Positions 14,343 to 63,268 of a DNA stretch of 64,000 nucleotides are shown piece after piece (within the stretch, counting starts at the first letter, position 1; each line of letters starts with the position of its first letter). The notes beneath the pieces are model-generated. The model was not told the origin of the DNA. It saw only the letters and a list, made by a program, of their open reading frames with translations, and ran no database searches. The stretch covers positions 16,678,001-16,742,000 of the forward strand of contig NC_086108.1 of NCBI RefSeq assembly GCF_963921235.1, written 5' to 3'. Source of the stretch: Mobula hypostoma. Lineage: Eukaryota. Made by a program: the position numbers and the translations under genes.

Positions 14343-14589
14343 AAAGCAACATACATCAAAGTTGCTGGTGAACGCAGCAGGCCAAGCAGCATCTGTAGGA
14401 AGAGGTGCAGTCGACGTTTCAGGCTGAGACCCTTTGTCAGGACGAACGAATGTCAAGTCCTGACGAAGGGTCTCGGCCTGAAACATTGACTGCACCTCTT
14501 CCTACAGATGCTGCTTGGCCTGCTGCGTTCACCAGTAACTTTGATGTATGTTGCTTGAATTTCCAGCATCTGCAGAATTCCTGTTGTTT
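14343..14589 (+). mobile_element. Short Penelope-like insertion: inverted pseudo-LTR pair with two mutated hammerhead cores
   Basis: 100-bp inverted arms 14344-14443 / 14457-14556 (5 mismatches), 13-nt spacer, 33-nt unpaired tail, exact 13-bp TSD aggcttgaaaatg (14330-14342, 14590-14602). Confidence 0.85.
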
Positions 14590-15308
14590 AGGCTTGAAAA
14601 TGGATCAGTTGAATTCCCTGATGATTCCTTCAGAATGAACAAAGAAAGAAAATTACCCACATCTTTAGCATCAAAAGCAGTATTTTGAATTATTTTTTTA
14701 AAATACAGTATGCCCTGTGGAGAACCCCAATCTGTGTTAATATTGAATGTGCATCACTTCAGGAAATCTAACTCCATTAAATTTAAAATACTTCTAATGA
14801 GATATAAAAATAAACAAATTATGATTCCAAACAGTATTTTCAAAACTGCATTAGATAGAACAACTCTGCATAAACAGTGCTGAAGATTTTCCAAGGCCTG
14901 AATAAATACAGCATTATGTTTTCATGGATACTAAAAATACCACTACCAAATAAAAACTCCTTACACTACAGAGGCCTGTGGTGTACCATTAAAATAATCA
15001 TTGACCGGATAAAATACATCAGTGAAGTAGGAATTTTATTTGAGTACTGTCATTATGTAGCTTATTTATATCGGCATATTGTAAACTTGCAAACAAGTGC
15101 ATTCTGTAGCTGACAATTTCATGACAAATTGTGTTTTATACAAAAAAATGTTATCTCAATATCTTAATTTACTGTCTGATGAAATCATTTTCCTGAAAGC
15201 TTATTGACAATTCGGTAAGAAAATTAAATATAACATTACAATTTTATAATGTATTAAAAGGAGTAACATTTGTAACCTGTAATTACAACTAAGGGTTTTA
15301 GACTCGGA

Positions 15309-15333
15309 ACACACACACACACACACACACACA
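15309..15333. repeat. (AC)12 microsatellite
   Basis: Read directly from the sequence. Confidence 0.95.
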
Positions 15334-15334
15334 A

Positions 15335-16870
15335 TTAAATAAGTAGTGCAAAATGGAAGCACAAAAAACTGATTTTCTTTCAGAAATCTGATAGTAGTGA
15401 GGTAGAAGCTGTTCTAAAACATTGAGTGTGTCTCCTTAGGCTCCTGAATGTCCTTGATGGTAGCAATGAGAAGTGGGCATGTTTTGGGTGATGGGGGTCC
15501 TCAATGACGAATGCTATCTTTTTGAGACATCGCCCTTTGGTCCTCAACACTGGGGAGCCTAGTGCCCATGATGGAGCCGGATGAGTTTGCAACTTCCTGC
15601 AGCTTTTTCCCGATCCTGTGCAGTCATGCCTCCACATCAGACGGTGATGCAACTAGTTAGAATGCTCTAGTTAGAAATATGCGAGCCTTTGGTGACATAC
15701 AATGTTTCCTCAAACTCCTAATGAATTATAGCTGCTGTTACGTCCTCTTCATAATTGCATCAATATGTTGGGCCCAAGATATACCGTCAGAGATGGTGAC
15801 ACCCAGAAACTTGAGACTGCTTACCCTTTCCACTGTTAACCCCTCAAGGATTAAGATAAGAGGATGCTAAGTTGCATGCCATCTTGGTCAATGTCTCCCA
15901 TCCACTACATAATGTACTGGGTAGGCACAGGAGTACATTCACCCAGAGACTCATTCCTCCAAGATGCAGCACAGAGCGTCATAGGAAGTCATTCCTGCCT
16001 GTGGCCATCAAACCTTACAACTCCTCCCTTGGAGGGTCAGACACCCTGTGCCGATAGGCTGGTCCTGGACTTATTTCATAATTTACTGGCATAATTTACA
16101 TATTACTATTTAACTATTTATGATTCTATTACTATTTATTATTTATGGTGCAACTGTAACGAAAACCAATTTCCCCCTGGGATCAATAAAGTATGACTAT
16201 GACTATGAGGACTAATGTGGATACCCTGGAATTCCTCTTCCTGAAGTCCACAATCAACACCTTGATCTTACTGGCATTGAGTATAAAGTTGTTACTGTGA
16301 CACCACTCATCTAGCTGATCTACCTCACTCTTGTTTGCTTCCAAGTCATCATCTGAAATTCTGCCAACAGCAGTTGTGTCATGGGCAAATTTATAGATGG
16401 CATTTGAACTGTGCCTAACCACAAATTTGTAGGTGCAGTGACACATATCCTTATGGTGTGCCAGTGTTGACTGTCAGCGAGGAGATGTTATTTCTGACCC
16501 ACACTGACTGTGGTCTCCTCATGAGAAAGCCAATGATCCAGTTCCAGAGGGAGGTATAGAGGTCCAGGGTTTGGACCTTGTTGATTAGTACTGAGGGTAT
16601 GATGGTGTTGAATGTTGAACTGTAATCAATAAATAGCAGCCTGACATATGTATCATTGTTGTCCAGGTGATCCAAGGCCGAGTGGAGATCCAGTGAGACT
16701 GCATCAGCTGTGCACCTATTGTGCTGATAGGCAACTTGCAATGGGTCCAGATTTTTGCTTAAGCAGGAGATGATTCTGGCCATGATCAACCTCTCAAAGC
16801 ACTTCATCACAGTAGATGTGAGTACAACTGGGCGATAGTTGTTGAGGTAGCTCACCATGCTCTTCTTTTT
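15335..16870 (-). mobile_element. Rex1/Babar-like LINE fragment, older family
   Basis: Minus ORFs 16451-16858 ([18 protein letters not shown]...[12 protein letters not shown]) and 16183-16446 (KFAHDT...VDFRK). Confidence 0.8.
15859..16207 (+). mobile_element. Rex1 3' fragment, same family as 5953-7795, nested in the older LINE
   Basis: Near-identical to 7450-7795 with the (TATGAC)n tail; approximate TSD aggattaa/aggactaa. Confidence 0.88.
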
Positions 16871-17104
16871 AGATCTTCAGGTTAGTGGTCAAAAACCTAT
16901 TCACTGAACATGAACCTAGAGGTCCAATTTACATGAGTAATGAAAACAATAAAAATTGCTCCATTTTTGCAATTTCCAATAACTGATCCATTTGGAAAAC
17001 TAGTTGTAGTGGAGATCCACAATCTCTGAGAGAAGAAATTCCTTTGCACCTCATTGGTTGACATCTTCTGGATAGATCATGAAACTACCTTTTTCATTTC
17101 TTTT

Positions 17105-17732: not shown

Positions 17733-17976
17733 CATCTCCCTTTTTGTAATCACATTCCCTCATTCAAGAGTTCCCAGACATTTCTTTCTACTCCCTCTCT
17801 CTGCAAGTTAAAACACTTCGACTTTCTCAGTTTAGATGAAAGGTCATTAACGTTATACAGCAGCTCTGTTTCCTTTGCCACAAATGCTATTCTGTTCAGC
17901 ATCTTCTGTTTAAATTGTTTATTTCCGGTTATCTGTCAGTTTTTACTTTATAACCGACAAAGCACATTGTTTATGT

Positions 17977-19275: not shown

Positions 19276-19348
19276 TTACGATAAATGAATTTCACTTCTA
19301 GCACTTTCAATATTAATACTATTAATAAAGATTCAGGAAAGGACTTAC

Positions 19349-26318: not shown

Positions 26319-26329
26319 CTCTAGAAACT

Positions 26330-26765
26330 GGTCACCAGTTCTGTATTTGGCTTCTTCTTTGTGAATACTGAATGCAATTCACTAGATTGGTAGAAGTGCA
26401 AATGAACCTGAACTTCTTGCTGCTTCCCTCTCTACTTCCCCATCCTATTCCAACTCTGATCCGTCTGTAGCTTCTTGCTTTGTTGTAATGAGATGCAAGG
26501 TGCTTGAGGAATGGCTTTCCAACTTCCACCTGGACATGTTGCAGACTTCCAGACTCAATATTTCTGATTCAGGTAAATCACATTCTGTTTACATCAGGAA
26601 CCCACTATCCTACCTTGTTTATCCCTATGGCAACCCTGGTCTCACCTAATCACAGATATTCCCAAGTGAATATGCTAAACCTTGCTTCAATTTTCACTGA
26701 TACTGCCTGATTTGCAAACAGTTTCTAGCATTTTCTGTTTTAATTTCTGATTCTGCACCTGCAGT
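26330..26765. mobile_element. Rearranged old Penelope-like remnant
   Basis: Minus FRFICTSTNLVNCIQYS resembles the GIY-YIG N-terminal FTCTSxNLVYCIxC motif; decayed pLTR on the plus strand at ~26690-26765. Confidence 0.5.
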
Positions 26766-27414
26766 TATTTAATCTTCAGTGGGAAAAAAACAGCTATTGG
26801 TTGAAAAGGTAAAATGTGAATTAAGTTTAGGCATTGCAAATCAACTTGTGAGTAGAGAAAGGACACATAGCACAACACTGCTTTCAAAATAATGGCTGTT
26901 GTTGCAAAATGGAAAACATTTTCTTGATCCAACTGATACCACTCACAAGCTTTGTAGTAGAAATGATGAACCTTCATTACATCTAGGGATGCTAAGGGTG
27001 CTCCAGGAGTGTTCACCGGATACAAAATACTTTAAGTTGAGTGTTAAATACATAGCTGTGACAGAGATGAAACAAGATACCGCATTTGCATTGCACTTGT
27101 TAAATGTGGCCACTGCAGCCAAAACTGCTATTTTGGGAGATCTGCTTATAAACACGATAGGTGTTCAGTGATGATCTAGCTTGGGGAGCTGGATTAGATA
27201 AAATGTTAGGCAGGCCACTAGGAGAACTCCCCCCCCCCCCCCCATAAATTCAGTTCTTTAAAATCTGTTGGTTTGACTTGTACTGTCATCCATCACCAAC
27301 TCGGAATGACTCCGTCTACTAATTCGGAGCAAGAAGGCTGCGAGTGAATGGCTGATTTTCGGAGTGAAGGCAGTTTTTACCACTCAGGGTAAAAGAGAGG
27401 CAAGACTGCGCAGG

Positions 27415-30077: not shown

Positions 30078-33000
30078 TTACATTAAATGAAAATATTGAA
30101 TAAAAGATCTCCAAGTCTGTTCAAATTTAAATGAGGAGTCATAAAGATTGCTTCTAATTTTCTCCAAAGTCAAGCATAATATCGTCTGAGAAAACCAAAA
30201 AAAGGTAGTTGGAGCATTAAGCTCTTTCCAATGTTGTAAGATACATCTTTTCGCCATTAAAGTAAGAAACACAATCATTCTACGGGTTGAAGGGGAAAGA
30301 TTACTGGAAATTTTAGGTAGTCCAAAGATAGCAGTAATAGGGTGAGGAGAGATATCTATATTCAATACCTTGGAGATAATATTAAAAATGTCTCTCCAAA
30401 AAGTTTCCAGAGTAGGGCAAGACCAAAACATATGAGTTAAAGAGGCTATCTGCCCCAAACATCTATCACAAAAAGGATTAATATGAGAATAAAAGCACGC
30501 TAACTTATCTTTGGACATATGTGCTCTATGAACAACTTTAAATTGAATTAGGGAATGTTTAGCACAGATAGAGGAAGTATTGACTAATTGTAAAATCTGC
30601 CCCCAGTCATCCACGGAAATGATAAACCCCAATTCCTGTTCCCAATCTACCCTAATCTTATCAAATGGAGCTTTCCTAAGTTTCATAATAATATTATAAA
30701 TCATAGCCGATGCACCTTTCTGACATGGATTAAGGTTAATTATAGTATCTAAAATGTATGTAGGAGGAAGCATTGGAAAGGAAGAAAGTATAGTACTTAG
30801 GAAATTTCTAACTTGTAGATATCTAAAAATATGTATTCTTGATAAGTTATATTTATTAGATAATTGTTCAAAAGACATAAGGGAACCATCTAAAAATAAA
30901 TCCAAAAACCGTGAAATACCCTTAGTCTTCCAAATTTGAAAAGCACGATCCGTAAAAGAGGGAGGAAAAAATATGTTACCTAAAATAGGAATCGCTAACC
31001 CAAATTGATTAAGATCAAAAAATTTTCTGAATTGAAACCAAATACGTAAGGTATATTTAACTATCGGGTTAGACACCTGTTTAAGGCGTTTCAAATCAAA
31101 AGGAAGAGAGGAGCCCAAAATAGAGCCAAGTGTAAAACCCTGAACAGATTGCAATTCCAATGCTACCCATTTAGGAATGGATAGTATATCCTGGTCAAGT
31201 AACCACAATTTCATATGTCGAATATTAATTGCCCAATAATAAAATCTAAAGTTAGGTAATGCTAAGCCTCCATCTCTCTTAGCTTTCTGTAAATGTATTT
31301 TACCCAGTCTCGGGTTTTTATTCTGCCAAATAAATGAAGAAATTTTAGAGTCGACTTTGTCAAAAAAAGATTTTGGAACAAAGACTGGTAATGCCTGAAA
31401 TATATATAAAAATTTTGGCAAAAAAAACATCTTAACTGCATTAATACGACCAATCAAAGTTAAATATAAAGGAAACCATTCAGATGAAAGTTGAATAATA
31501 TGGTCTATTAATGGTAAAAAGTTAGTCTTAAATAAATCTTTGTATTTACAAGTAATTTTAATCCCAAGATATGAAAAATAATTATTAATCAATTTAAATG
31601 GAAATTTATAATATAAGGGAAGTTGTTTATTAATCGGAAAGAGTTCACTCTTACTAAGATTTAATTTATAACCTGAAAAAAGACCAAATTGTGCTAATAG
31701 CTCTAAAACAGCCGGGATGGATTTTTGGGGATTAGAAATATATAAAAGTAAATCATCAGCATAGAGTGATATGTTATGGGACTTTAAACCCCGAGTTATC
31801 CCAGTAATATTTGGAGATTCTTGAATGGAAATTGCAAGAGGTTCTAATGCAATATCAAATAATAAGGGACTAAGAGGACAACCTTGTCGAGTACCTCGAA
31901 AAAGAGGGAAAAAAGGTGAACTTAAAGAGTTAGTACTGACTGAGGCCACAGGAGAATGATATAACAGTTTAATCCAGGATATAAATTTTGAGCTAAAATT
32001 AAACATTTCAAGCACCTTAAATAAATAAGGCCATTCTACTCTATCAAAAGCTTTCTCAGCATCTAAAGAGATAACACACTCAGGAACATTTTGTGAGGGA
32101 GTATAAACAATATTTAACAGTGTGCGAATATTATAAAAAGAGTAACGACCTTTAATAAAACCCGTTTGGTCTTCCGAAATAATAGAAGGAAGTACTTTTT
32201 CTAATCTATTTGCTAATAACTTAGAAAAAACTTTAGAATCAACATTTAATAAAGATATTGGTCTATAAGATGCACATTGAGCAGGATCTTTATCCTTCTT
32301 TAATATTAGAAAAATTGACGCTCTATTAAAAGATTCAGGAAGTTTACCAAGTTTTAATGAAGCCTCAAAAACCCTACAGAATCAAGGGATTAATGAAGGA
32401 GCAAAACATTTATAAAATTCTACGGTAAACCCATCAGGGCCAGGAGCTTGCCCCAAATTCATAGAGAAAATAACATTCTTAATCTCATCCGTGGTAATGG
32501 GAGTACCTAACATAGAAGACATATCCTGTGAAATCTCGGAAGTCTAAATTATCTAAAAAATCATTCATATATTTAGAATCTCGAGGAGACTCTGATTGAT
32601 ATAAGGAAGAGTAAAAATCACAGAAGGTTTGATTAATCCCCACATGATCAAGTATCAGTCGATCATTTTGGTTATAAATCTGATTAATTTGAGATTTAGC
32701 ATAATTAGACTTCAGTTGATTAGCCAACAGTTTGCTAATTTTGTCACTGTGTACATAAAATTCACTTCTTGTTTTCTTTAATTGGTTTACAATCGAGGAC
32801 GAGAGTAATAAACTGTGTTCCATTTGAAGTTCAGTTCTTTGTTTATATAACTCCTCAGAAGGAGCGATAACATATTTCTTATCAATTTCCTTAATCTTGT
32901 CCACAATTACCAACTCCTCCTGCTTCAGCTTCTTCCTCAAAGCAGCAGAATACGAGATAATCTGACCACGAATATAAGCTTTAAAAGTGTCCCAAAGAAT

Positions 33001-33855
33001 GTTGACAGAAATATCCTCTGTATAGTTAATTGTTAAAAAAAAGATCAATCTGTTCATTCATAAAGTTAACAAAGTCCGAGTCCTGAAGCAACAGCGAATT
33101 AAAACGCCATTGTCTATTATTTTGTATATTGGCCAGAATTTTAATAGAAAGCTTAAGTGGAGCATGATCCGAAATGGTTATAGAGTCATAATCACATTTA
33201 ATCACTGAGGAAATAAGACGAGAATCAATAAAGAAATAATCAATTCTTGAATAGGAATGGTGAACATGTGAAAAAAAAGAAAAATCTTTTTCCTGAGGAT
33301 GCAAAAAACGCCAAATGTCCGTCAACCCAGAATCAGAAAGGAATGAATTAATCAAAGTTGCAGATTTATTAGGTAAGGTCCGTAGAGGAGCCGAATGGTC
33401 CAAAGCTGGAGACAAACAGGTATTAAGATCTCCGCCCCAGATCAATGAAAACTCATTCAAATTCGGAAACTGATTAAATAATGATTTATAAAATTCCGGA
33501 CAGTCCATATTAGGAGCATAAACATTAACCAAAACTACTTTTTTTTATTAAATAGTAAACCACTAACCAATAGAAATCTACCATTCGGATCAGAAATAAT
33601 ATCATGTTGTATAAAAGTAACTGAGGAGTCTATAAAAATAGAGACGCCTCGAATCTTAGCATTGGAGTTCGAATGAAACTGTTGACCCTTCCAGAATTTA
33701 AAAAAACGTAGTCTGTCCCCCCTCCGCACATGGGTCTCTTGTAAAAATAAAATTTGTGCTTTAAGTCTCTGGAACACTTTAAAAACTTTTTTCCTTTTAA
33801 TAGGATGATTAAGACCATTAGTATTCCAGGAGACAAAATTAATAATAGACTCCAT
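30078..33855 (-). pseudogene. L1 ORF2 (APE-RT-CCHC), three frameshifts and one stop
   Basis: SWNTNGL, FLQETH, NVYAPN, GGDLN, SRIDY, SDH; APGPDG, LDAEKAFD, RQGCPLSP, YADD; CDRC...HMFWSC. Frameshifts near 33540, 33040 and 32540; TGA near 32383. Confidence 0.93.
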
Positions 33856-34567
33856 AAACCCTAAAGTCAACCCGCAACAAGGAGGATTGACGATAGGCTC
33901 GACCCACGAACCCGGAAAGGGAACAGAACATACAAGAGATACCGGGAAGAAGAACGCAACCAATACTTCAATAATGTATATAGCCCAAGAAGAAAGAAAC
34001 TAAAACGTGAAGCCCCTCCCACCACCCCCCACCCCATGACCCCAAGGCTAAATCTAACGCAGACCAGCCCGAAAGAAGCAAGCACTAAAACTACCCCCAT
34101 GACTTCCGATATACGCTCCCTAAAAAAAGTGTAAATATAAAAAAGATCAGCTAATTATAAAACAGTAAAAGAATAAAAAAAAGATAACTCAATTAAAATA
34201 AACACATAACAGAATAAAAGCCAGAAAATATAAAAAAACCGCAATAAACCCCAGACCCATGAGTAAACAAAACAACAAAAAAAAGAGAGATTATTAACAT
34301 AAACTAGTTATAAAACCCTACAAAACAAAATAGATTTAAAAAAAACTACAAAATTTAAGGCCACAAAGGAAATACGTAAAATGACGATGAGGAAGTAACC
34401 ACCCAGAGTCCCCTGGGAAAAAGAAAGAAATGACGCAGTTAAAAAGAAAGTTTAGCAACCATATTAAATAATCAAAAATAAACTTTTCTGCCCAAATAGG
34501 GCAAAAAAAAAATTAAGACCGACAAATTCACAGCCTCCGATCAACGGAGCTAGTTAAAATATTACGA

Positions 34568-35413
34568 TTAAGATGTTGAAGGTGCAAATTGATCCAGATA
34601 ACTCTGGGCATCTGATGGAGATTCAAAAAAACAGAGGGCTCCATCCAACGTACGAATCCTTAAATGTGCAGGATAAAGCAGCGCTGGTTTTAAATCCATC
34701 TTGTAGAGTTCCGACATCACAGATCTATAACGAACCCGTTGATCCCGGATTGGTTTACTGAAATCCTCCACGAATCAGAACTTAAGATCCAGAAAATCAA
34801 TGTAACCTTTAGATCGAACGAAACGAAACAGTTTCTCCTTGTCTTGAAAGTAATGAAAACGTAAAATGACATGTCTAGGTTTATCTGACCTAGGCGAGTA
34901 TGATGGAACTCTGTGAACACGATCCAATAACGATGGTTGGTCAGAAAATACAGTAGGAAATGCATCTTTTAAAAGTTGAGAAAAATACTTCATAGGGTTA
35001 TCGGATTCAACAGCTTCACGCACCCCAAACATTTGAAGATTCTGCCGTCGCATTCTAGATTCTAAGTCAGAATTTTTAAAGGTCAGAAAGTCGAGTTTCT
35101 TCTTCATTACATTAATTGTTTCTTCGATTTTCTCCATCTTGAGCTCACTTTGTTGCGTGGATTTTTGAAGATCAGATATAGCCGACCGATGTTCCGTAAT
35201 AGATATCTGTATCTTCTCGATTGAATCGGCAACTTTCTGGAAACTAGTTGAAATTTCCGCACGAATCAGCTCCATAACAGAGGTTGAAATTTCCCTTTGA
35301 ATTAGCTCCGATATAGCTTTCAAAGTCACCGGTGGTTCAGTCGGAGGGAAATCAGTACCTTTCGGTCTAACCGGAGGTTTGCCATCCTTCCCGTTTTTTC
35401 CATTCTTAGACAT
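34568..35413 (-). pseudogene. L1 ORF1 (coiled coil-RRM-CTD), one in-frame stop at 34775-34777
   Basis: DLESRMRRQNLQMFGVRE, LDRVHRV, PRHVILRF, EDFS, LLYPAHLRI motifs. Confidence 0.9.
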
Positions 35414-38400: not shown

Positions 38401-38601
38401 TCGGTGCCAGAGATGCAACCACTACAACTTGTCCCTGGTAGGTTGTCCCCACCCAACAGTATCCAAAACGGTATACTTATTATTGATGGGAACGGCCACA
38501 GGGGTGCTCTGCTCATTGTGTCTATTCCCCTTCCCTCTCCTGACAGTCACCCAGCTACCTGCCTCCTGACTTTTAGGGGTGACTATCTCCCTGTAACTCC
38601 T

Positions 38602-38781
38602 ACATGAGGAAATCTGCAGATGCTGGAAATTCAAGCAACACACATCAAAGTTGTTGGTGAATGCAGCAGGCCAGGCAGCATCTCTAGGAAGAGGTACAGT
38701 CGACGTTTCAGGCCGAGACCCTTCGTCAGGACTTGAGATGCTGCCTGGCCTGCTGCGTTCACCAGCAACTTTGATGTGTGT
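38602..38781 (-). mobile_element. Short Penelope-like insertion with partial inverted arm
   Basis: Same unit as 14457-14589 on the minus strand plus inverted arm ~38735-38781; TSD tccctgtaactcct (38588-38601) / tccctgtgactctt (38782-38795). Confidence 0.85.
38698..38733 (-). ncRNA. Minimal type-I hammerhead ribozyme, intact core
   Basis: Minus strand AGUC-CUGACGA-AGG-gucucgg-CCU-GAAA-CG-UC-GACU: stem I AGUC/GACU, CUGANGA box, 3-bp stem II, GAAA box, palindromic ACGU stem III and GUC cleavage triplet, matching the minimal hammerhead described in PLE terminal repeats. Confidence 0.8.
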
Positions 38782-41700
38782 TCCCTGTGACTCTTGTTTA
38801 TTTCTACTTCTGCCTCACGAATGATCCGAAGTTCATCCAGTTCCAGTCCAGTTCCCTAACACGGTTTGTCAGGAGCTGCAGCTGGATGCACCTTTCACAG
38901 GTGTAGTCATCAGGGACAATTGTGCTCGCCCTGACTTCCCACATTCTGCAAACAGAGCACTCAACTGAAATAGGGAAACAGATCCTGGAAAGGTGTAATA
39001 ATAATAGAGTTGTCATGATGGGAGATTTTAATTTCCCAAGTATCGAATGGTATCTCCCTACAGCAAGGGGTTTAGTTGGGATGGAGTTTGTTAGGTGTGT
39101 TCAGGAAGGTACCTTGACACAATAGGCCTACAAGAGGAGAGGTGATTTGGTATTGGGAAATTAACCTGGTCAGGTGTCAGATCTCTTAGTGGGAGAACAT
39201 TTTGGAGATAGTGATCATAATTCTATCTCCTTTACAATAGCATTGAAGAGAGATAGGAACAGACAAGTTAGAAAAATGTTTAATTGGAGTAAGGGGAATT
39301 ATGAGGTTATCAGGGAGGAAATTGGAAGCTTAAATTGGAAACAGATGTTCTCAGGGAAAAATACAGAGGAAATGTGGCAAATGTTCAGGGGATATTTGTG
39401 TGGAGTTCTGCATAGGTACGTTCCAATGAGACAGAGAAGTTTTGGTATGGTACGGTACAGGAACTGTGGTGTACAAAGGCTGTAATAAATCTAGTTAAGA
39501 AGAAAAGCTTACAAAAGGTTCAGAGAGCTAGGTAATGTTAGAGATCTAGAAGATTATAAGGCTAATAGGAAGGAGTTTGAGAAGGAAATTAGGAGAGCCA
39601 GAAGGGGCCATGAGAAGGCCTTGGCGGGCAGGATTAAGGAAAACTCCAAGGCATTCCATAAGTATGTGAAGAGCAAGAGGATAAGACGGGAAAGAATAGA
39701 ATCTATCAAGTGTGACAGTGGGAAAGTATGTATGGAACCGGAGGAAATAGAAGAGGTACTTAATGAATACTTTACTTCAGTATTCACTATGGAAAAGGAT
39801 CTTGGTGATTGTTGTGATGACTTGCAGCAGACTGAAAAGCTTGAGCATGTAGATATTAAGAAAGAGGATGTGCTGGAGCTTTTGGAAAGCATCAAGTTGG
39901 ATAAGTCTCCGGACCGGAGGAGATGTACCCCAGGCTACTGTGGGAGGCGAGGGAGGAGATTGCTGAGCCTCTGACGATGATCTCTGCATCATCAATGGGG
40001 ACGGGAGAGGTTCCGGAGGATTGGAGGGTTGTGGATGTTGTTCCTTTATTCAAGAAAGGGAGTAGAGATAGCCCAGGAAAGTATAGACCAGTGAGTCTTA
40101 CCTCAGTGGTTGGTAAGTTGATGGAGAAGATCCTGAAAGGCAGGATTTATGAACATTTGGAGAAGTATTGTATGATTAGGAATAGTCAGCATAGCATTGT
40201 CAAGGGCAGGTCATGCCTCATGAGCCTGATTGAATTTTTTGAGGTTGCGACTGAAAACATTGACGAAGGAAGAGCAGTCGACGTAGTGTTATGGATTTCA
40301 GCAAGGCATTTGGTAAGGTACCCCATGCAAGGCTTATTGAGAAAGTAAGGAAGCATGGGATCCAAGGGGACATTATTTTGTGGATCCAGAACTGGCTAGC
40401 CCACAGAAGGCAAAGAGTGGTTGTAGGTGGGTCATATTCTGCATGGAGGTCGGTCACCAATGGAGTGCCTCAGGGATCTGTTCTGGGACCCTAACTCTTC
40501 GTGATTTTCATAAATGACCTGGTGAGGAAGTGGAGGGATGGGTTAGTAAGTGTGCGGATGACACAAAGTTTGGAGGTGTTGTGGATAGTGTGGAGGGCTG
40601 TCAGAGGTTACAGCGGAACATTGATAGGATGCAAAACTGGGCTGAGAAGTGGCAGATGGAGTTCAACCCAGATAAGTCTGGAGTGGTTCATTTTCGTAGG
40701 TCAAATATGATGGCAGAATATACTATTAATGGTAAGACTCTTGGCAGTGTGGAGAATCAGAGGGATCTTGGGGTCCGAGTCCATAGGATGCTCAAAGCAG
40801 CTGCGCAGGTTGACTCTGTGATTAAGAAGGCGTACAGTGTATTGGCCTTCATCAATCGTGGAATTGAATTTAGGAGCCGAGAGGTAGTGTTGCAGCTACA
40901 TAGGACCCTGGTCAGACCCCACTTGGAGCACTGTGCTCATTTCTGGTTGCCTCACTGCAGAAAGGATGTGGAAGCCACAGAAAGGGTACAGAGGAGATTT
41001 ACAAGGATGTTGCCTGGATTGGGGAGCATGCCTTATGACAATAGGTTGAATGAACTCGGCCTTTTCTCCTTGGAGCGACGGAGGATGAGAGGTGACCTGA
41101 TGGAGGTGCATAAGATAATGGGAGGCATTGATTGTGTGGATAGTTAGAGGCTTTTTCCCAGGGCTGAAATGGTTGCCACAAGAGGACGCAGGTTTAAGAT
41201 GCTGGGGTGCAGGTACAGAGGAGATGTCAGGGGTAAGTTTTTTTACTCAGAGAGTGGTGAGTGCGTGGAATGGTCTGCCGGCAACGGTGGTGGAGGCGGA
41301 TACGATAGGTTCTTTTAAGAGACTTTTGGATAGGTTTATGGAACTTAGAAAAATAGAGGGCTACAGGTTAGCCTAGTAATTTCTAAGGTAGGGACATGGT
41401 CGGTACACCTTTGTGGGCCGAAGGGCCTTTACTGTGCTGTAGGTTTTCTATGTTTCTATGTAACCCTTTTTCCTTTAAAGTATTGATCAGATTTGGTCAT
41501 TACTGGCAAAGCCAGCATTTATAATCCATTCCTAAATGCCAAATCTCTCATCCCATGAACATTGTGATTTGCTTGGTAGAGGAAACCACAATGGAGTCAG
41601 TCTTGGCTATGCAAGGTAAGGATAGCAGTTTTCATCTTCAGATGATACAAATCAGCCTGATAGGGTTTTCCAAAAAATTTATAGTTTTATTCAATGTTCA

Positions 41701-42846: not shown

Positions 42847-42877
42847 CTACAAAGGAATAACACAGATTATAAATAGT

Positions 42878-43043: not shown

Positions 43044-44436
43044 GTGCTGTAGGTTTTCTATGTTAGTCTTACTGATACCCATCGAATAAAATTGGAAAGA
43101 AATGGTTTTCTGAGCCACTCTATCTGAAGTTATTTATTTCATACCTACTGAAAATCTAACTTCGTTAATTTATTTTAACTGACAGATTTATTGTCTGGCA
43201 TTAGTTGTTTTACAAATCATCTGCTGCTGATTCATGAAACCAAGAGTCAGCTGCATCAAACAGAACTTGAAGTTAACGCTTTAAAAAAAAAACTTAAGAA
43301 ACAATGCAAAGACCAGCAACCACTATTCATCCTAATTTCTCCAAGGAAGGTGGTAATGAACCACTGAAGACACTTGCTGTGTGCTATTTGCAAGGAAATA
43401 TCAGGACTTTTGATCCATCAGCAACAAATGCACAGTGAGAGTTTCAAATTAGGATGATGTGTGACCTGTAAGGGAACATGAAGTGGTACTATTCTCATAA
43501 AGTTACCATTCTTGTTCTTCTTTGAGGTAGTGTTTGGGGTTTGTTAAGTACCATCTGAGTAGCTAATGGAAGCAGCTGCAATGCATTTTGTAAATGGTGA
43601 TGGATGGAGTACATATTCAGGTTTATGCAGTGGGTGCTAACCAAGCACACTGCTTTGTTCTCAATGTTATCAACTCTCCTGCAGGTTGTTGAGGGCTCCA
43701 GACAGGTAGGTATTATTCAATTATGCTTTGTCTTGTGACTTACTGAGTTGGAAAGACTCTGGGATGTCAAGGTGAGTTACTTGCTCAAGGTACCAACTCT
43801 GATGAACTGTTGTTGCTATGGTATTTATATATGTAGTTGGTCCAGTTCAGTTACTGGTCAGTGGTGACCCCCAGACTTAGTAACAGAAAGGCCACTGTAT
43901 ATTGATAATTATGGTTAGACTCTCTCCTTCTGGAGTTGGGCATAGCTTGGCTTTTAAATGTTAAACAGATCTCATCAACTCACTCCTAAATAATATCCAA
44001 GTCTTGCTGCATTGAAGAATGATCTGCTTCATTTTGAGAGATATTGCACATAGAATTAAATATAATGGAAACATCAACAAACCATTTTGCTTTCTGACCA
44101 CACGATGTAAGAATGGTCATTTCTGATTTACTGAAGCTTGTTGAGTCTTGGACACTGCTTGGAGGAAGAGCTGCGGCAAATTCAGAAAAGGAAATGCCAG
44201 AGATATTCAGCAGATAAGGTGGCATTTTGGAGAAAGAGTCAGAGTTACATATTCCAGGTTAAAAACATTTCATCACAAGTGATCAACCACCTGAAATCCT
44301 GATTTTCTCTTTCCATTGATGTCTGTCCTGCTGAATATCTCCAGCATTTTCTGTCTTTAATTCTCAATTTGTTTTTTGATTCTTTCAGTTATGTCTAAAA
44401 ACCAAGGCAACTAGCCTCAAACAATCACAACCACCT

Positions 44437-44619
44437 AAACAAGAGAAAATCTGCAGATGCTGTAAATCTGAGCAACACACACAAAATGCTGGAGGAACTC
44501 AGCAGGCCAGGCAGCATCTATGGACAAGAATACAGTCCATACGGCTTGAAATGTCGACTGTACTCTTTTTCATAGATGCTGCCTGGCTTGCTGAGTTCCT
44601 TCAGCATTTTGTGTGTTGC
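44437..44619 (-). mobile_element. Older PLE pseudo-LTR foldback
   Basis: Arms gcaacacacacaaaatgctggaggaactcagcaggccaggcagcatctatg / catagatgctgcctggcttgctgagttccttcagcattttgtgtgttgc, with a GAAAtgTCgact hammerhead remnant at the centre. Confidence 0.78.
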
Positions 44620-44724: not shown

Positions 44725-45078
44725 TTGTCTCCTGCGCTATCACCAATCTCACTGACTCTGGATCTCCCACCCACTGCCACCAACCTCATAGTTCCCCAAA
44801 GCCGCACTGCTTATTTCCACCTACTACCAAAGATCCACAAACCTGACTGTCGGGGTGGGCTCACTGTTTCAGCCTGCTCCTGTCCTACTGAACTCATGTT
44901 CACATACATCAATTTCATTTTATCCCCCCTTGGTTCAGTCCCTTCCCACCTACATCTGTGTTAATAAATGGGCTCTTGATCACTTCAACCTCTTTCAGTT
45001 CCCTGGCCCCAATTGCCTCACATTCACTATGGATGTTCAGTCTCTATACACTTCTATACCCCATCAGGAAGGCCTTAA
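44725..45078 (+). mobile_element. Penelope-like reverse transcriptase fragment
   Basis: FHLLPKIHKPDC...VSACSCPTE...LVQSLPTYI...FTMDVQSLYTSIPHQEGLK, characteristic PLE RT motifs. Confidence 0.88.
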
Positions 45079-47660
45079 AACAGTTGTACAAAGGCTGTTG
45101 TAAATCTAGTCAAGAAGAAAAGAGTTTACAAAAGGTTCAAAAAACTAGGTAGTGATAGAGATCTAGAAGATTATAAGGCTAACAGGATGGGGCCATGAGA
45201 AGGCCTTAGCAGACAGGATTAAGGAAAAACCCCAGGGCATTCTACAAGTATGTGAAGAGCAAGAGGAGAGAATAGGACCAATCAAGTGTGAAAGTGGAAA
45301 AGTGTGTAAAGAACCGGAGGAGAAAGCAGACGTACTTAATGAACACTTTGCTTCAGTATTCACTATGGAAAAGGATCTTGGTGATTGCAGGGATGGCTTA
45401 CAGCAGACTGAAAGGCCTGAGCATGTAGATATTACGGAAGATGTGATGGAGCATTTGGAAAGCATCAAGTTGGATAAGTCACCAGAACCAGATATGTACC
45501 CCAGGCTACTGTGGGAAGAGAGGGAGGAGATTGCTGAGCCTCTGGTGATGATCCTTGCATCATCAATGGGGACAGGAGAGGTTCCAGAGGATTGGAGGAT
45601 TGCGGATGTTGTTCCCTCACTCAAAAAAGGGACTAGAAATAGCCCAGGAAATTATAGACCAGTGAGTCTTATTCAGTGGTTGGTAAGCTGATGGAAGAGA
45701 TCCTGAAAGGCAGGATTTATGAACATTTGGAGAGGCATAATATGATTAGGAATAGTCAGCATGGCTTTGTCAAAGGCAGGTCATGCCTTACGAGCCTGAT
45801 TGAATTTTTTGAGGATGTGACTAAACACATTGATGAAGGAAGAGCAGTTGATGTAGTGTTATGGATTTCAGCAAGGCATTTGATAAGGTACCCCATGCAA
45901 GGCTTATTGAGAAAGTAAGGAGGCATGGGATCCAAGGGGCCATTGTTTTGTGGATCCAGAACTGGCTTGCCCACAGAAGGCAAACTGTGGTTGTAGACGG
46001 GTCATATTCTGCATGGAGGTCGGTGATCAGTGGAGTGCCTCAGGGATCTGTTCTGAGACCCTTACTCTTTGTGATATTTATAAATGATCTGAATGAGGAA
46101 GTGGAGGGATGAGTTAGTAAATTTGCTGATGACACAAATGTTGGGGGTGTTGTGGATAGTGTGGAGGGCTTTCAGAGGTTATAGTGGGACATTGATAGGA
46201 TGCAAAACTGGGCTGAGAAGTGGCAGATAGAGTTCAACCCAGATAAGTGTGAGGTGGTTCATTTTAGTAGGTCAAATATGATGGCAGAATATAGTATTAA
46301 TGGTAAGACTCTTGGCAGTGTGGAAGATCAGAGGGATCTTGGGGTCCGAGTCCATAGGACACTCAAACCTACTGCACAGGTTGACTCAGTGGTTAAGAAG
46401 GCATACGCTGCATTGGCCTTCATCAAACGTGGGATTGCGTTTAAGAGCTGAGAAGTAATGTTGCAGCTACTGTATATAGGATCCTGGTCAGACCCCACTT
46501 GGAGTACTGTGCTCAGTTCTGGTCGCCTCACTACAGGAAGGATGTGGAAACCATAGGAAGGGTGCAGAGGAGATTTACAAGGATTGTAAATCCCTGGATT
46601 GGGGAGCATGCTTTATGAGAATAAGTTGAGGGAACTCGGTTTTTTCTCCTTGGAGTGACAGAGGATGAGAGGTGACCTGATAGAGGTATATAAAATGATG
46701 AGAGGCATTGATCTGGGATATAGTCAAAGGCTTTTTCCCAGGGCTGAGATGGCTAGCACGAGGGGGCACAGGTTTAAGGTGCTTGGAAGTAGGTACAGAG
46801 GAGATGTCAGGGGTAGGTTTTTTAGACAGAGAGTGGTGAGTGTGTGGAATGGGCTGCCGGCGACGGTGGTGGAGGCGGAAACAATTGGGTCTTTTAAGAG
46901 ACTCCTGGATAGGTACAGTGGCATGCAAAAGTTTGGGCACCCTGGTTAAAATTTCTGTTACTGTGAATAACTAAGCGAGTAAAAGATGACCTGATTTCCA
47001 ATAGGCATAAAGTTAAAGATGACACATTTCTTTAATATTTTAAGCAAGCTTACTTCTTTATTTCCATCTTTTACAGTTACAAAATAACAAAAAAGGAAAA
47101 GGGCCTGAAGCAAAAGCTCGGGCACCCTGCATGGCCAGTACTTAGTAAAACCCCCTTTGGCAAGTATCACAACTTGTAAACGCTTTCTGTAGCCAGCTAA
47201 GCGTCTTTCAATTCTTGTTTGGGGGATTTTCACCCATTCTTCCTTGCAAAAGTCTTCTAGTTTTGTGAGATTCTTGGGCCGTCTTTCATGCACTGCTCTT
47301 TTGAGGTCTATCCACAGATTTTCGATGATGTTTAGGTCAGGGGACTGTGAGGGTCATGGCAAAACCTTTAGTTTGCGCCCCTTGAGGTAGTCCATTGTGG
47401 ATTTTGAGGTGTGTTTAGGATCATTATCCTGTTGTAGAAGCCATCCTCTTTTCAGCTTCAGCTTTTTTACAGACGGTGTTATATTTGCTTCCAGAATTTG
47501 CTGGTATTTAATTGAATTCATTCTTCCCTCTACCAGTGAAATGTTCCCCATGCCACTGACTGCAACACAAGCCCAAAGAATGATCGATCCACCCCCTGTG
47601 CTTAACAGTTGGAGAAGTGTTCTTTTCATGAAATTCTGCACCCTTTTTTCTCCAAGCATA

Positions 47661-48061
47661 CGAGGGATGATTGATAAGTTCGTAACGTGAGCTGTATAAC
47701 TCATCTCCTTCTACCCTAGGCCACGAACTTATCAATCACCCCTGTTGTGGACCACTTGGAGGTCCAAGACATTCTCATTAAATGCACGTGCAGTTCAACT
47801 CTTTGAGTGATAATGCAGAAAGTTTGAACTTAATAACTCATCTCCTTCTACCTTAGGCCACAAACTGATCAATCACCCCTGCTATGGACCACTTTTAGGA
47901 GGTCCAAGATGCTGACTTCTACAAAGAAGGGATCCATATGCTCCACGACCACTGGACTAAGTATGTACGTGTCGGGGGGACTATGTTGAAAAATAAACGT
48001 GCTAGGTTTTCTAAAATTGACTCCTTCTACCTTAGGCCACAAACTTATCAATCACCCCTCG
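47661..48061. mobile_element. Mariner-type MITE, second copy, inserted at a TA in the Tc1 transposase
   Basis: Same TIRs and modules as 9057-9511 in the opposite orientation; TA on both sides. Confidence 0.88.
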
Positions 48062-48084
48062 TACCTTTGCTCATTGCGGCCAAA

Positions 48085-48399
48085 GACCCCAAGATCCCTC
48101 TGATCCTCCACACTGCCAAGAGTCCTACCATTAATACTATATTCTGCCATCATATTTGACCAACCAAAATGAACCACTTCACACTTATCTGGGTTGAACT
48201 CCATCTGTCACTTCTCAGCCCAGTTTTGCATCCTATCAATGTCCCGCTGTAACCTCTGACAGCCCTCCACACTATCCACACCACCTCCAACCTTTGTGTC
48301 ATCAGCAAACTTACTAACCCATCCCTCCATTTCCTCATCCAGGTAACTTATAAACATCACGAAGAGTAACCAGAACAGATCCCTGAGGTACACCACTGG
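48085..48399 (-). mobile_element. Internal CR1 RT fragment inside the Tc1
   Basis: GWVSKFADDTKVGG...LQRDIDRMQNWAEK; flanked by tcattgcggccaaa (48071-48084) / tcactgcggccaaa (48400-48413). Confidence 0.85.
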
Positions 48400-49929
48400 T
48401 CACTGCGGCCAAACAGTTGTATTTTAAATTCATCAGTCCACAGGACTTGTTTCCAAAATGCATCAGGCTTGTTTAGATGTTCTTTTGCAAACTTCTGATG
48501 CCGAATTTTGTGGTGAGGATGCAGGAAAGGTTTTCTTCTGATGACTCTTCCATGAAGGTCATATTTGTGAGGTGTCACTGCACAGTAGAACAGTGCACCA
48601 CCACTCCAGAGTCTGCTAAATCTTCCTGAAGGTATTTTGCAGTCAAACAGGGATTTTGATTTGCCATTCTAGCAATCCTATGAGCAGTTCTCTCGGAAAG
48701 TTTTCTTGGTCTTCCAGACCTCAACTTGACCTCCACCGTTCCTATTAACAGCCATTTCTTAATTACATTACGAACTGAGGAAACGGCTACCTGAAAATGG
48801 TTTGCTATCTTCTTATCGCCTTCTCCTGCTTTGTGGGCATCATCTATTTTAATTTTCAGAGTGCTCGGCAGCTGCTTAGAGGAGCCCATGGCTGCTGATT
48901 GTTGGGACAAGGTTTGAGGAGTCAGGGTATTTATAAAGCTTTGAAATTTGCAACACCTGGCCTTTCCTAATGATGACTGTGAACAAGCCATAGCCCTAAC
49001 AAGCTAATTAAGGTCTCAGACCTTGGTAAAAGTTATCTGAGAGCTCAAATCTCTTGGGATGCCCAAACTTTTGTATGGTCCTCCTTTCCTTTTTCTCACT
49101 CTAATATTGTACATAACAAAACTAATACACGAATCTTGCTTAAAATGCTGAAAAGAATGTTTCATCTTTAACTTTACGACTTTTGGAGATCAGTTCATCT
49201 TCTGCTCACTTAACTGTTCATAGTAACAGAATTGTTGACCGGGGTGCCCAAACTTTTGCACACCACTGTACATGCAGCTTAGAATAACAGAGGGTTCTGG
49301 GTAACTCTCGGTATTTTTAATCATCTGGAGGAAGGAGTTCTTCGCTTGCTTGTGCTTAGACTTCATGGGATCTGGAATCATTCATTTCATCTGCGTACCA
49401 CTGTGTTACCACCTACTGTGAGTCTGTCCTTCTGGTGTGACTAGATATACCTGGAGATTGTGAAGGATAGATTTGCATGTTGGCTGCAAGGATAATCTGA
49501 TTAATACAACTATACAACCCTCTGACTGATGTGGGACGGGTCACATCATTTAGACCTAATTGCTTGATGTTCATAAGCAGAACATTGCTGGAATCCTGCA
49601 AGTAGATCACAACTAGGTGGTCATATTGGTTCATTCCTATTATTATTCTATAGCAGCTTTGATACAAAATGGATGTCTTGCTAACTCTAGCTTGATCATT
49701 AATTTGACCTCCTAATTCATGTTCTAATCCTAAACTTGCCAGCACATACAATAAGAAGTGACAAAACGCATCAAAATCACTTGTAAAGCATGTTTCCTAG
49801 AATAAACTTGTGGCTAATGAACATTTTTTGACAGTAAAAACATAGGCATTATGAATACTACATTGTGAACTGACCATTTTCAGGAAGAATCCTTGTCCTT
49901 CATCATGTGAAATACTCTGTATCTCTCAC

Positions 49930-60205: not shown

Positions 60206-61488
60206 CCACTCCCTGCATTTTCATGTGTCTAAATGCTTCTTCAAAACCACTGTTTCCACTACCACTACTGCAGCACATTCCAAGCACCTACCACTTTCTG
60301 TGAAAGGGGAAAGTTTAAAGGAAATATACAATTAATCCTTTGTCAGTACACAAAACAAAATCCCAAATACTTCTTATTTTAAAATCCTATTTCTTCAACA
60401 TATTGATCTGGATGTGCATCTCCCAAACATTCCATTAATTCATTTTTCATCTTGCTATAGCAGTCTTGATTTGTCTACTAGTCCTAATGCGGTTAAATGC
60501 CCCACTGTTTATACGCGCACCTCAAATTTCCTAATTTATGCCATTGTCGACAACATAACTACATTTTGGTGGACTAAAAATATTCTTACTGATGTCATCT
60601 GCCCTTTGCTATTTCATAATGCAACTCAAATTAATTCTAGTTGTACTCCATGATCTGTGAAGCCAAGAAAATTTCTGACTATGGACTGATCTTGTCCATC
60701 CTCTTTTCCTTATTCCTTGTTCTTCCTGAATGTTGAGTGCCCTGGAATATGTGGTTGACAGATTTGGTCATTGTGCAGCCACATTACAGTAATGTCAAAG
60801 AGATAAGATCTCTTTCCTATTTGTGCCATTAATGCACTTACTCTGTTATGATGCTACAAATCTATTACTATATCTTGTAAAACTGTTACTTGCAAACAAC
60901 TATAGGGATTAGTGCTGAGAGAATGATCTACCTCAACCCCTTCTGAGGTCCACAACTTTACAAACTCTTGTCAGGAGGCAATTCAATTCAACCAATGTAA
61001 AAATTCAACAAGAAATACTGGATTGTACTGGTTACAACAAAGACAAGGGACAACATAAGCCTATAAGACATTGGAGCAGAATTAGGCTATTTGGCCCATT
61101 GAGTCTGCTCCGCCATTCAATCATGGCTGATTCTTTTTTTTTCTCCTCCTCAACTCCAGTTCCCATCCTTCCCCCTGTAACCTTTGATACCATGTGCAAT
61201 CAAGAACCTATCAATCTCTGCCTTAAATACACCCAATGACCTAGCCTCTACAGCTGCATGTGGCAACAAATTCCACAAATTCACTACCCTCTGGTTAAAG
61301 AAATTTCTCCATATCTCTGTTTTGAATGGATGCCCCTCTATCCTGAGGCTGTGCCCTCTTGTCCTAGACTCTCCCACCATGGGAAACATACTTTCCATAT
61401 CTACTCTGTCAAGGCCTTTCAACACTTGCAAGGTTTCAATGAGAACCCCCGTCATCCTTCTAAATTCCAGTGAGTACAGACCCAAAGC

Positions 61489-62296
61489 CAGACACCCCAC
61501 CCTGCAAAAATTCATTTCAGGGAGGTAATTTGCAGGAGACTCCCAGAACTTCCGGGAGAGGTGGGATGTCTGCAATAGAATAGCTCCTTAGCAGCTAGCC
61601 AGCTAGTTTAAATAACGTTAGCTATGCTAATGAACAAATGACACCCATTAAACTCACCTCACCATGTCTTTTACAGTCTTAATCCACCATGGGCAATAGA
61701 AAAGTCACTGTTGCAAACAGTGCAGCGAGCAACACTGTCATTATTTTTGACCCCTATTAGGCAGGGGTACATTTTAGTGTAGTCTGGGGTGACGTACGTT
61801 TTATTATTTTTTTTTGGAACACTCTGCCACTCTGACTTTTTTTGGAACTCTCTCGCTCTTGCTCTCTCTATCGCACGTGCGCTCTTTCGCTCGTGGTCAC
61901 TAACACTCGCGTTTGCTTTCTCGCTCTCGCTCTCTCTCTCGTGGTCGCTCTCACTCGCGCTTGCTCTCTCGCGCTTGCTTTCTTGCTCTCGCTCTCACGC
62001 GCTCTCTCGCTCTCGCACTCTCTCTCTCTCGCGCTTGCTTTCTTGCTCTTGCTCGCTCTCTCTCGCACTTGCTTTCTTGCTCTCACTCTCTCTCGTGCTT
62101 GCTTTCTCGCTCTCTTGCTCTCTCCCTCACGGTCACTCTCACTCGCGCTCGCTCTCTCACTCTCCCTCGCGCGTTCTCTCACGCTCGCTCTCAAAAAAAT
62201 CAATTTCCAGGACATTGTATATAATTTGCGGGCATCAGGGAGCCACTATTAATTTGTGGGAGACTCCCGGAACTTCCGGGAGAGGTGGGATGTCTG
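61489..62296. mobile_element. 808-bp non-autonomous TIR element with 6-bp TSD (hAT-like)
   Basis: TIRs CAGACACCCCACC / GGTGGGATGTCTG (12 of 13 match); TSD caaagc (61483-61488) / caaagt (62297-62302); the host CR1 rejoins across it. Confidence 0.8.
61847..62192. repeat. CT/CG-rich low-complexity tract (ctcg/ctct/cttg units)
   Basis: Read directly; explains the spurious ORFs at 61789-62355. Confidence 0.9.
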
Positions 62297-63146
62297 CAAA
62301 GTCATCAAATGTTCCTTGTATGATAATTCTTTCATTTCAGGAATCATCCTTGTGAACCTCCTCTGGACCCTCTCCAATGCCAGCACATCTCTTCTAAGAT
62401 GAAGAGCCCAAAACTGTACACAATACTCAAGGCGAGGCCTCACCACTGCCTTATAAGCCTCAGTGTCATGTTCTTGTTCTTGTATTGTAGACCTCTTGAA
62501 ATGAATGCTAACACTGCATTTGCCTTCCTTACCATCAACTCAATCTGCAAGTTAACCTTCAGGGTGTTCTGCACAAGGACTCCTAAGTCCCTTTGCATCT
62601 CAGATTTTTGGACTTTCTCCCCGTTTAGAAAATAGTCCCCACATTTACTTCTACTACCAAAGTGCATGACCGTGCGTATTCCAACATTATATTTCATTTG
62701 TCACTTTCTTGCCCATTCTCCTAATCTGCCTAAGTTCATCTGCATCCTACCTGTTTCCTCAGTACTACCTGCCCCGCCACCAATCTTCGTATCATCTGCA
62801 AACTTGGCAACAAAGCCTCTGTTTCATCATCTAAATCATTTATATATAGCATAAAAAGAAGTGGTCCCAACACTGGCCCCTGCAGAGAACCAGACAAGGA
62901 TCCTTTAATTCCCCCTCGCTGCCTTCTTCCAATCAGCCAATGCTCTAACCACATTCGTAACTTTCCTATAATAACACGGACTCTTAACTTGGTAAGCAGC
63001 ATCACGTGTGACACCTTGTCAAAGGCCTTCTGAAAGTCCAAATATACAACATCCACTGTATCTTTGTACTTTACTTGTAATCTCCTCAAAGAACTCCAAC
63101 AGGTTCATCAGGCAAGATTTCCTCTGAAGAAAACCATGCTGACTTT

Positions 63147-63268
63147 AAGGGTCTCGGCCTGAAACGTCGACTGTACCTCTTCCTAGAGATGCTGCCTGGC
63201 CTGCTGCGTTCACCAGCAACTTTGGTGTGTGTTGCTTGAATTTCCAGCATCTGCAGAATTCCTGTTGT
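63147..63268 (+). mobile_element. Single 5'-truncated PLE pseudo-LTR unit, 122 bp
   Basis: Same unit as 14466-14588; exact 8-bp TSD ctgacttt (63139-63146, 63269-63276); truncated inside the hammerhead CUGANGA box. Confidence 0.87.

What the first reader, a model, noticed from the sequence alone, without database searches (positions are those of the whole stretch)
14343..63268. Family of tiny hammerhead-carrying Penelope-type insertions with a fixed foldback geometry
Seen: one ~130-nt unit (gtcCTGACGAagggtctcggcctGAAAcgTCgac...gcagaattcctgttgt) inserted independently at 14343, 38602 and 63147 with TSDs of 13, 14 and 8 bp, and an older relative at 44437. No copy carries coding sequence. In all three foldback copies the inverted arm stops within a few nt of the same point (gt.tgttgctt), leaving a 30-40-nt unpaired 3' tail. 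Known: PLE pseudo-LTRs carry minimal type-I hammerheads, and inverted pLTRs with a short 3' tail are a Penelope hallmark. PLE RT (44725-45078) and GIY-YIG remnants (1-140, 26330-26765) are in the window. Inference: these are either extremely truncated PLE insertions or a non-autonomous ribozyme-based retro-unit mobilised in trans. This is the best candidate for an under-described system here.
Basis: partly seen in the sequence, partly recalled or inferred. Interest (0 to 1): 0.72.

Follow-up and report, generated by a model that had tools for sequence, protein, structure and literature searches.

The report
Short Penelope retroelement end fragments

Summary
The four copies are real. A (14343-14589) has an exact 13-bp TSD, B a 14-bp TSD with 2 mismatches, C an 8-bp TSD; D has none. 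The tail-less arms end within about 5 nt of each other and leave 33-35-nt tails. A fifth, older foldback lies at about 44179-44370.

The geometry is the published PLE signature: inverted pLTR plus 30-40-nt tail, explained by two RT start sites (PMC11167929). Only copy B keeps an intact minimal hammerhead core. The three foldbacks have different junctions and different source subfamilies, and public contigs show at least six more junctions. So the foldback is rebuilt at each insertion, not copied from one master.

The unit was laid on 85,541 and 53,265 contigs of two public DNA-type runs, and some relatives run on past both ends. The RT remnant is confirmed; the two GIY-YIG remnants are not statistically supported. 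No genome was held, so the copy-length distribution and a direct repeat-to-ORF link are untested.

One open point: junctions cluster at the 5' strand of helix I, which could mark a defined short template. Verdict: new member of a known kind.

The parts
14330..14342 (+). Copy A left TSD (13 bp, exact)
   Evidence: 1 of 400 random placements reach it
14343..14450 (-). Copy A tail-less inverted pLTR arm; hammerhead box mutated (CUGACAA); last ~7 nt resemble the upstream sequence seen in one loose end
   Evidence: loose end of X12 at 38714
14456..14589 (+). Copy A tail-bearing pLTR arm, starting at helix I 5' strand; cleavage triplet mutated; 33-nt tail 14557-14589
14590..14602 (+). Copy A right TSD
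38588..38601 (+). Copy B left TSD (14 bp, 2 mismatches)
   Evidence: 3 of 400
38602..38733 (-). Copy B tail-bearing pLTR arm with 35-nt tail
38698..38733 (-). The only intact minimal type-I hammerhead motif: 4-bp helix I, CUGACGA, 3-bp helix II, GAAA, palindromic ACGU, GUC; predicted cut between 38702 and 38701
   Evidence: layout as in PMC4209133; activity not tested
38733..38781 (+). Copy B short tail-less inverted arm, no hammerhead; about 2-nt microhomology at the junction
38782..38795 (+). Copy B right TSD
63139..63146 (+). Copy C left TSD (8 bp, exact)
   Evidence: 5 of 400
63147..63268 (+). Copy C: single arm with tail, 5'-truncated inside the hammerhead, no inverted arm
63269..63276 (+). 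Copy C right TSD
44437..44537 (-). Copy D (second subfamily) tail-bearing arm, starting at the predicted cleavage position; 35-nt tail; no TSD found
44534..44619 (+). Copy D tail-less arm with partly deleted hammerhead; shares 4 nt (helix I complement) with the other arm
44179..44370 (.).
   Evidence: I8; z 3.8-8.1, 0 of 300 shuffles in each of 8 comparisons
44761..45097 (+). Frameshifted PLE RT remnant, abutting a LINE fragment at about 45085; about 105-140 nt downstream of D's plus arm, same sense
26690..26775 (+). Decayed pLTR (F) downstream of the unconfirmed GIY-YIG-like remnant
   Evidence: significant against D arms and E right arm (z 4.6-6.1, 0 of 300), borderline against E left (3 of 300), not against B or C (z 1.2)

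Best explanation
These are dead, very short insertion products of an abundant endonuclease-bearing Penelope-like retrotransposon, probably of Neptune type. The ~132-nt unit is the element's terminal repeat, with a minimal hammerhead at its 5' part. Steps: (1) the PLE protein cuts both target strands with a stagger of 8-14 nt, giving the TSD (TSD shown; enzyme inferred). (2) RT starts inside the RNA at one of two sites about 33-35 nt apart; the distal start gives the tail-bearing arm and the proximal start the tail-less arm (end-points shown; mechanism taken from PMC11167929). (3) Synthesis stops early, often at or near the hammerhead. The two oppositely oriented cDNAs from one template, or one cDNA and its snap-back copy, are joined through 0-4 nt of microhomology or a few added bases (junctions shown; twin priming versus snap-back not resolved). 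(4) If only one arm forms, a plain truncated copy like C results. (5) Copies then decay neutrally, mostly at CpG. A foldback transcript buries the ribozyme in a long hairpin, so these copies are unlikely to self-cleave.
For: TSDs. Arm ends within about 5 nt and 33-35-nt tails in two subfamilies about 81% identical. A's two arms share 4 substitutions absent from B and C, and 4 of their 5 differences are CpG transitions, so both came from one template. Junctions differ in A, B and D. The 6 opposite-strand joints among 15 shown (of 33) in public contigs are all different. Very high abundance: 85,541 and 53,265 contigs laid in two DNA-type runs (not a copy number). Relatives continue past both ends: loose-end consensuses share a G plus A-run upstream (agreement 0.32-0.42) and a CGCAA motif beyond the tail (0.44-0.45). 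CpG changes at the cleavage triplet and stem III run at 9-12% in the DNA-type runs, like 9-11% at a CpG outside the motif. PLE RT remnant in the window, with 61-67% identical relatives named as whale shark proteins. Helix I and II probability is 0.04 or less in foldback transcripts.
Against: No contiguous ORF-to-pLTR link for the A/B/C subfamily was shown here. F is significant only against the D and E subfamilies, and its GIY-YIG is unconfirmed. Inner ends are not uniformly spread: A's tail arm, B's tail arm and D's plus arm start at the helix I 5' strand, and 5 of 6 shown opposite-strand joints have one side at 38731-38733. The low agreement of upstream loose ends (0.32-0.42) also fits many copies ending there in unique DNA. 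D lacks a TSD.
Confidence: 0.75

Rival explanations
1. A discrete size class comes from a defined short template. Either a non-autonomous pLTR RNA is mobilised in trans, or RT starts in the first (5') pLTR of the PLE transcript, whose 5' end is set by a transcription start, a splice acceptor at helix I, or ribozyme cleavage.
For: Three arms in the window start at helix I. 5 of 6 shown opposite-strand joints are anchored at 38731-38733. In X1, loose ends at 38731, 38732 and 38733 number 245, 268 and 815, among the six largest shown for that run. The upstream consensus reads in sense as a pyrimidine run plus CAG, and in D. virilis Penelope an intron ends at helix I (PMC4209133). D's tail arm and two listed joints (38701 to 38602, 38701 to 38664) begin at the predicted cut site. 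pLTRs suffice for mobilisation in trans in rotifers (PMC3846280).
Against: My reference stops resembling the family at 38733, so every longer copy is also scored there. Helix I complementarity gives 4-nt microhomology, and CpG decay at 38701-38702 ends alignments, so both hot spots have trivial explanations. C, B's short arm and the partner sides of the joints (38637-38698) are variably truncated. A's inverted arm, one X12 loose end and gene model P0157 extend a few nt upstream.
Confidence: 0.18
2. Non-LTR retrozyme: the unit spreads through hammerhead-cut circular RNA and rolling-circle reverse transcription.
For: pLTR-derived retrozymes exist in vertebrates, including one chondrichthyan (10.64898/2026.07.22.740005). 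Three 'goes back' joints are listed, one the size of the hammerhead core.
Against: No tandem array of the unit in the window. Copies are head-to-head, with hammerheads on opposite strands that cannot dimerise in one transcript. The motif is minimal, not the canonical type I of retrozymes (PMC7229834). Copy ends follow the PLE tail rule.
Confidence: 0.04
3. A MITE-like foldback master amplified as a unit.
For: Long inverted arms in A, B, D and E.
Against: Arm lengths, loops and junctions differ in every copy. The tail lies outside the inverted repeat. TSD length varies from 8 to 14 bp. C has no arm.
Confidence: 0.03

Closest known systems
EN+ PLE insertions with inverted pLTR and tail, e.g. Pen2a_Av of Adineta vaga (PMC3846280, 12 passages read); general scheme in PMC8557442 (12 passages read)
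   Same: Head-to-head inverted pLTR, optional tail on one arm (31 bp there, 33-35 here), TSD of 8-10 bp there and 8-14 here, microhomology junctions, solo pLTRs
   Different: Here the whole insertion is only 122-247 bp with no ORF, and the family is extremely abundant
PAc/Poseidon of Anolis carolinensis (PMC11167929, parts 1-2 of 4 read)
   Same: Minimal hammerhead in the pLTR; genomic ends at two points 30-40 nt apart
   Different: The RT relatives here carry a Cys-rich RT-EN linker, suggesting Neptune/Nematis type (inferred from sequences; no tree built). No enzyme data here
Minimal hammerheads of metazoan PLEs (PMC4209133, parts 1-2 of 4 read)
   Same: Short helix I, palindromic or absent helix III, mostly solo motifs on truncated PLEs, opposite-strand pairs close together
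   Different: Helix II is short (3 bp plus a 7-nt loop) against 7-8 bp in Schistosoma. No cartilaginous fish is named in the parts read; one supplementary file could not be searched
Non-LTR retrozymes (PMC7229834, 12 passages read; 10.64898/2026.07.22.740005, parts 1-3 of 5 read)
   Same: Non-coding, hammerhead-bearing, pLTR-related
   Different: Defined by head-to-tail tandem units with complete hammerheads; these copies are solo or head-to-head and mostly broken

Membership tests
EN+ Penelope-like element (pLTR-derived insertion) | Inverted 5'-truncated copy next to a pLTR | tested here: met
   (A, B, D, E); opposite-strand joints
EN+ Penelope-like element (pLTR-derived insertion) | 30-40-nt tail on one end only | tested here: met
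   33, 35 and 35 nt in A, B, D
EN+ Penelope-like element (pLTR-derived insertion) | Variable-length TSD | tested here: met
   3 of 5 copies tested (A, B, C); none for D and E
EN+ Penelope-like element (pLTR-derived insertion) | Minimal type-I hammerhead motif in the repeat | tested here: met
   Intact in B only; no Rfam hammerhead hit
EN+ Penelope-like element (pLTR-derived insertion) | Repeat contiguous with an RT plus GIY-YIG ORF | tested here: inconclusive
   RT remnant confirmed near D; F pLTR follows an unconfirmed EN remnant; no genome held; collection scans empty
Neptune clade | RT phylogeny and Zn-finger-like RT-EN linker | tested here: inconclusive
   Cys-rich linker seen in relatives P0004, P0006, P0012, P0071; the window remnant does not reach it; no tree with named references
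Active hammerhead ribozyme | Self-cleavage at GUC; RNA ends at the site | not testable with these tools
   Only contigs were available. The hammerhead-shaped monomer of B is -5.7 versus -11.1 kcal/mol for the MFE fold
Active hammerhead ribozyme | Core boxes more conserved than neighbours | tested here: inconclusive
   Triplet and stem III CpGs vary at 9-12%, like an outside CpG; the table lists nothing at 38706-38733, so CUGANGA and GAAA were not assessable
Non-LTR retrozyme | At least two head-to-tail units each with a complete hammerhead | tested here: not met
   none of 11 tandem rows is this unit; window only. Three goes-back joints exist elsewhere
Non-LTR retrozyme | Circular RNA of unit length | not testable with these tools
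   no raw RNA reads offered
Distinct non-autonomous family with one master | Copies share ends and internal junction | tested here: not met
   A, B, D junctions differ; 6 of 6 shown opposite-strand joints differ

The most novel reading that the evidence does not exclude
A large share of the copies are complete reverse transcripts of a defined template of about 132 nt, running from the 5' strand of hammerhead helix I (a splice-acceptor-like site) or from the ribozyme cut site to the two RT start sites. They would be made pairwise on both nicked target strands and joined head to head. The family would then be a genome-scale fossil record of two-start-site, two-strand PLE priming and of hammerhead cleavage in vivo, which was not detected in RNA-seq for the one PLE studied biochemically.
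Probability: 0.2. Interest if true: 0.55.

Novelty: new member of a known kind. Interest (0 to 1): 0.24.

Why it matters
As it stands it is an ordinary, very abundant PLE family. Its value is as a test set: very many junctions from one family could show whether inverted pLTRs arise by twin priming or snap-back, and whether the PLE hammerhead cuts in vivo; both are open in the papers read. Copies are also included in host gene models (2 Mobula proteins), which matters for annotation quality.

Tried and rejected
Whole genome: none held, so no copy table.

Collection scans: exact or degenerate unit patterns gave 0 matches in metagenome, viral and prokaryote genome collections. RT-based locus searches gave no confirmed relative. 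These collections are not expected to hold animal DNA.

Rfam: no hammerhead family hit. Folding z-scores of the unit were -0.51 to 0.31 in 4 of 4 pieces, so there is no excess stability.

GIY-YIG remnants: not supported by HMM, PSSM, tblastn or Atlas. The one extra EN search returned a single unnamed protein. The references were mostly distant, so this is weak evidence of absence.

pLTR-like peptides in PLE proteins: among 158 proteins only the two Mobula gene models scored clearly. The pLTR-like start of P0011 did not appear among the 25 best scores and is a lead only.

Expression: no RNA holder on record. X11 and X12 are guessed RNA and are contigs, so they say nothing on expression or RNA ends.

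mir-2131: match to D at 42 bits, below the gathering score of 92; lost when one arm alone was searched. Not accepted as homology.

Dfam and Repbase were not available, so no comparison with curated Penelope entries was made.
Full report
Observation. The unit is present where stated. TSD tests against 400 random placements of the same span gave 1 of 400 for A (13 bp exact), 3 of 400 for B (14 bp, 2 mismatches) and 5 of 400 for C (8 bp exact); D and the extra copy E had none above background. Inverted arms are 109, 56 and 61 nt at 91-93%. The tail-less arms stop within about 5 nt of each other, leaving tails of 33, 35 and 35 nt. Only the outer end is fixed. A has two full arms and a 13-nt spacer; B has a full tail arm and a 50-nt arm joined by about 2 nt of microhomology; D has the tail on the arm without the hammerhead and a 4-nt overlap at helix I; C has one arm, cut inside the motif.

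Hammerhead. B carries a 4-bp helix I, CUGACGA, a 3-bp helix II, GAAA, a palindromic ACGU and GUC, the minimal layout of PMC4209133. It is the only intact core among 7 arms of A-D. Rfam models do not match. The hammerhead-shaped monomer is 5.4 kcal/mol worse than the MFE fold, and in foldback transcripts helix I and II probabilities are 0.04 or less. In the two DNA-type runs, CpG transitions at the triplet and stem III are 9-12%, like 9-11% at a CpG outside the motif. In the two guessed-RNA runs they are lower (3-7%) while the outside CpG stays at 7-8%, but non-CpG sites outside the motif also drop, so I do not read this as selection.

Origin of the foldback. A's arms share 4 substitutions absent from B and C, and 4 of their 5 differences are CpG transitions: one template, then decay. 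Three of those 4 substitutions also appear as variants in the contig table (22%, 7% and 5% in X1), so A comes from another source lineage than B and C. D, at about 81% identity, is a further subfamily, and E (about 44179-44370) an older one (0 of 300 shuffles in each of 8 comparisons). The same geometry in several lineages with different junctions points to a process, not a master copy.

Public runs. No genome was held. I laid contigs of 4 of 23 listed runs on copy B's single unit at 85% likeness: 85,541, 53,265, 7,120 and 5,443 contigs were laid. The tool warns that this is no copy number and that some differences, joints and loose ends were not counted in X1 and X2. Of 33 joints 15 were shown; 6 were opposite-strand, all different, and 5 of these had one side at 38731-38733; 3 were goes-back joints. 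Of 777 loose-end rows 24 were shown. Upstream loose ends share a G followed by an A-rich run (agreement 0.32-0.42), ends beyond the tail share a CGCAA motif (0.44-0.45), and others reproduce the D subfamily (0.57-0.69). So some relatives are longer at both ends, but the low agreement does not tell how many. My reference stops matching at 38733, which itself piles longer copies at that point.

Link to a PLE ORF. The RT remnant is solid. Its best relatives are whale shark gene models, and P0004, 53% identical, has RT and GIY-YIG domains. It lies about 105-140 nt downstream of D's plus arm in the same sense, which is suggestive but post hoc, and D's arm does not run into it. A decayed pLTR at about 26690-26775 is significant against D and E arms but not B or C. 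The GIY-YIG remnants before it and at 1-140 did not pass my tests. So the direct link is inconclusive here, and the assignment rests on the combined signature. The unit also occurs in two Mobula gene models, which with the RT relatives suggests a ray-like host (inference). Earlier AI notes on this genome report the motif just behind the coding part of one abundant PLE; I could not check that.

Mechanism. PMC11167929 (parts 1-2 of 4) shows a PLE protein cutting and extending both strands and starting RT at two internal sites whose spacing equals the genomic tail; hammerhead cleavage was dispensable in vitro and not seen in RNA-seq. That explains the fixed outer ends. The inner junction could be two cDNAs joined by microhomology or a snap-back at helix I; PMC3846280 argued for self-priming. 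My data do not separate these. Confidence in truncated by-products of an autonomous PLE: 0.75.

What remains open. Three arms start at the helix I 5' strand, joints cluster there, the upstream consensus looks like a splice acceptor as in D. virilis Penelope (PMC4209133), and D's tail arm and two listed joints start at the predicted cut site. Microhomology, CpG decay and my choice of reference could produce each of these. I give a defined short template 0.18-0.2.

Comparison with print. Inverted truncated copy plus 30-40-bp tail: PMC8557442 (12 passages), PMC3846280 (12 passages), PMC8969392 (5 passages). Solo and opposite-strand minimal hammerheads on truncated PLEs: PMC4209133 (parts 1-2 of 4; supplement file 1 not searchable); review PMC6155905 (12 passages). 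Non-autonomous pLTR derivatives: PMC7229834 (12 passages) and 10.64898/2026.07.22.740005 (parts 1-3 of 5; supplements not seen). Searches listed no paper whose title or abstract start describes this particular family; most subscription papers, Dfam and Repbase were not searchable. The label 'twin priming' is recalled from L1 literature and comes from no call.

Verdict. Real, well observed, ordinary in kind: new member of a known kind, interest 0.24.

Noticed in passing
window 44507-44586: Copy D's foldback matches Rfam mir-2131 at 42 bits, E 7e-5 (gathering 92), with some primary-sequence likeness in the 3' arm; one arm alone gives no hit. A possible origin of that bird miRNA from an ancient PLE foldback is an untested lead; 25 papers listed for the term, none opened.
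   Followed up: partly
window 44179-44370: Older pLTR foldback of a third subfamily, 60 nt from D and about 400 nt from the RT remnant: a small PLE cluster.
   Followed up: partly
P0156, P0157: The unit is translated inside two Mobula gene models (CoA synthase, STARD3NL isoform): exonisation or annotation artefact.
   Followed up: no
window 38699-38733: A goes-back joint of 35 nt, about one hammerhead core, in 3 contigs of X1 and 1 of X12: possible tiny tandem of the core elsewhere in the genome.
   Followed up: no
window 63139-63146: Copy C's TSD begins with CTGAC, the same letters as the missing hammerhead box just upstream of its truncation point; chance or microhomology.
   Followed up: no
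window 9719-13907: LTR retroelement with 195-bp LTRs at 98% identity, a PBS-like site and long gag-pol-like frames; Gypsy-like by eye, not tested.
   Followed up: no
window 9055-9513 and 47659-48063: Two copies of an element with terminal inverted repeats starting TACGAGGG and nested internal inverted repeats; MITE-like.
   Followed up: no
window 30078-34000 and 34775-35482 (minus): Long LINE frames (767-aa RT-like piece, endonuclease-like and ORF1-like pieces), L1/Tx1-like by eye.
   Followed up: no
window 46958-49003 (minus): Tc1-like transposase fragments by eye, interrupted by other repeats.
   Followed up: no
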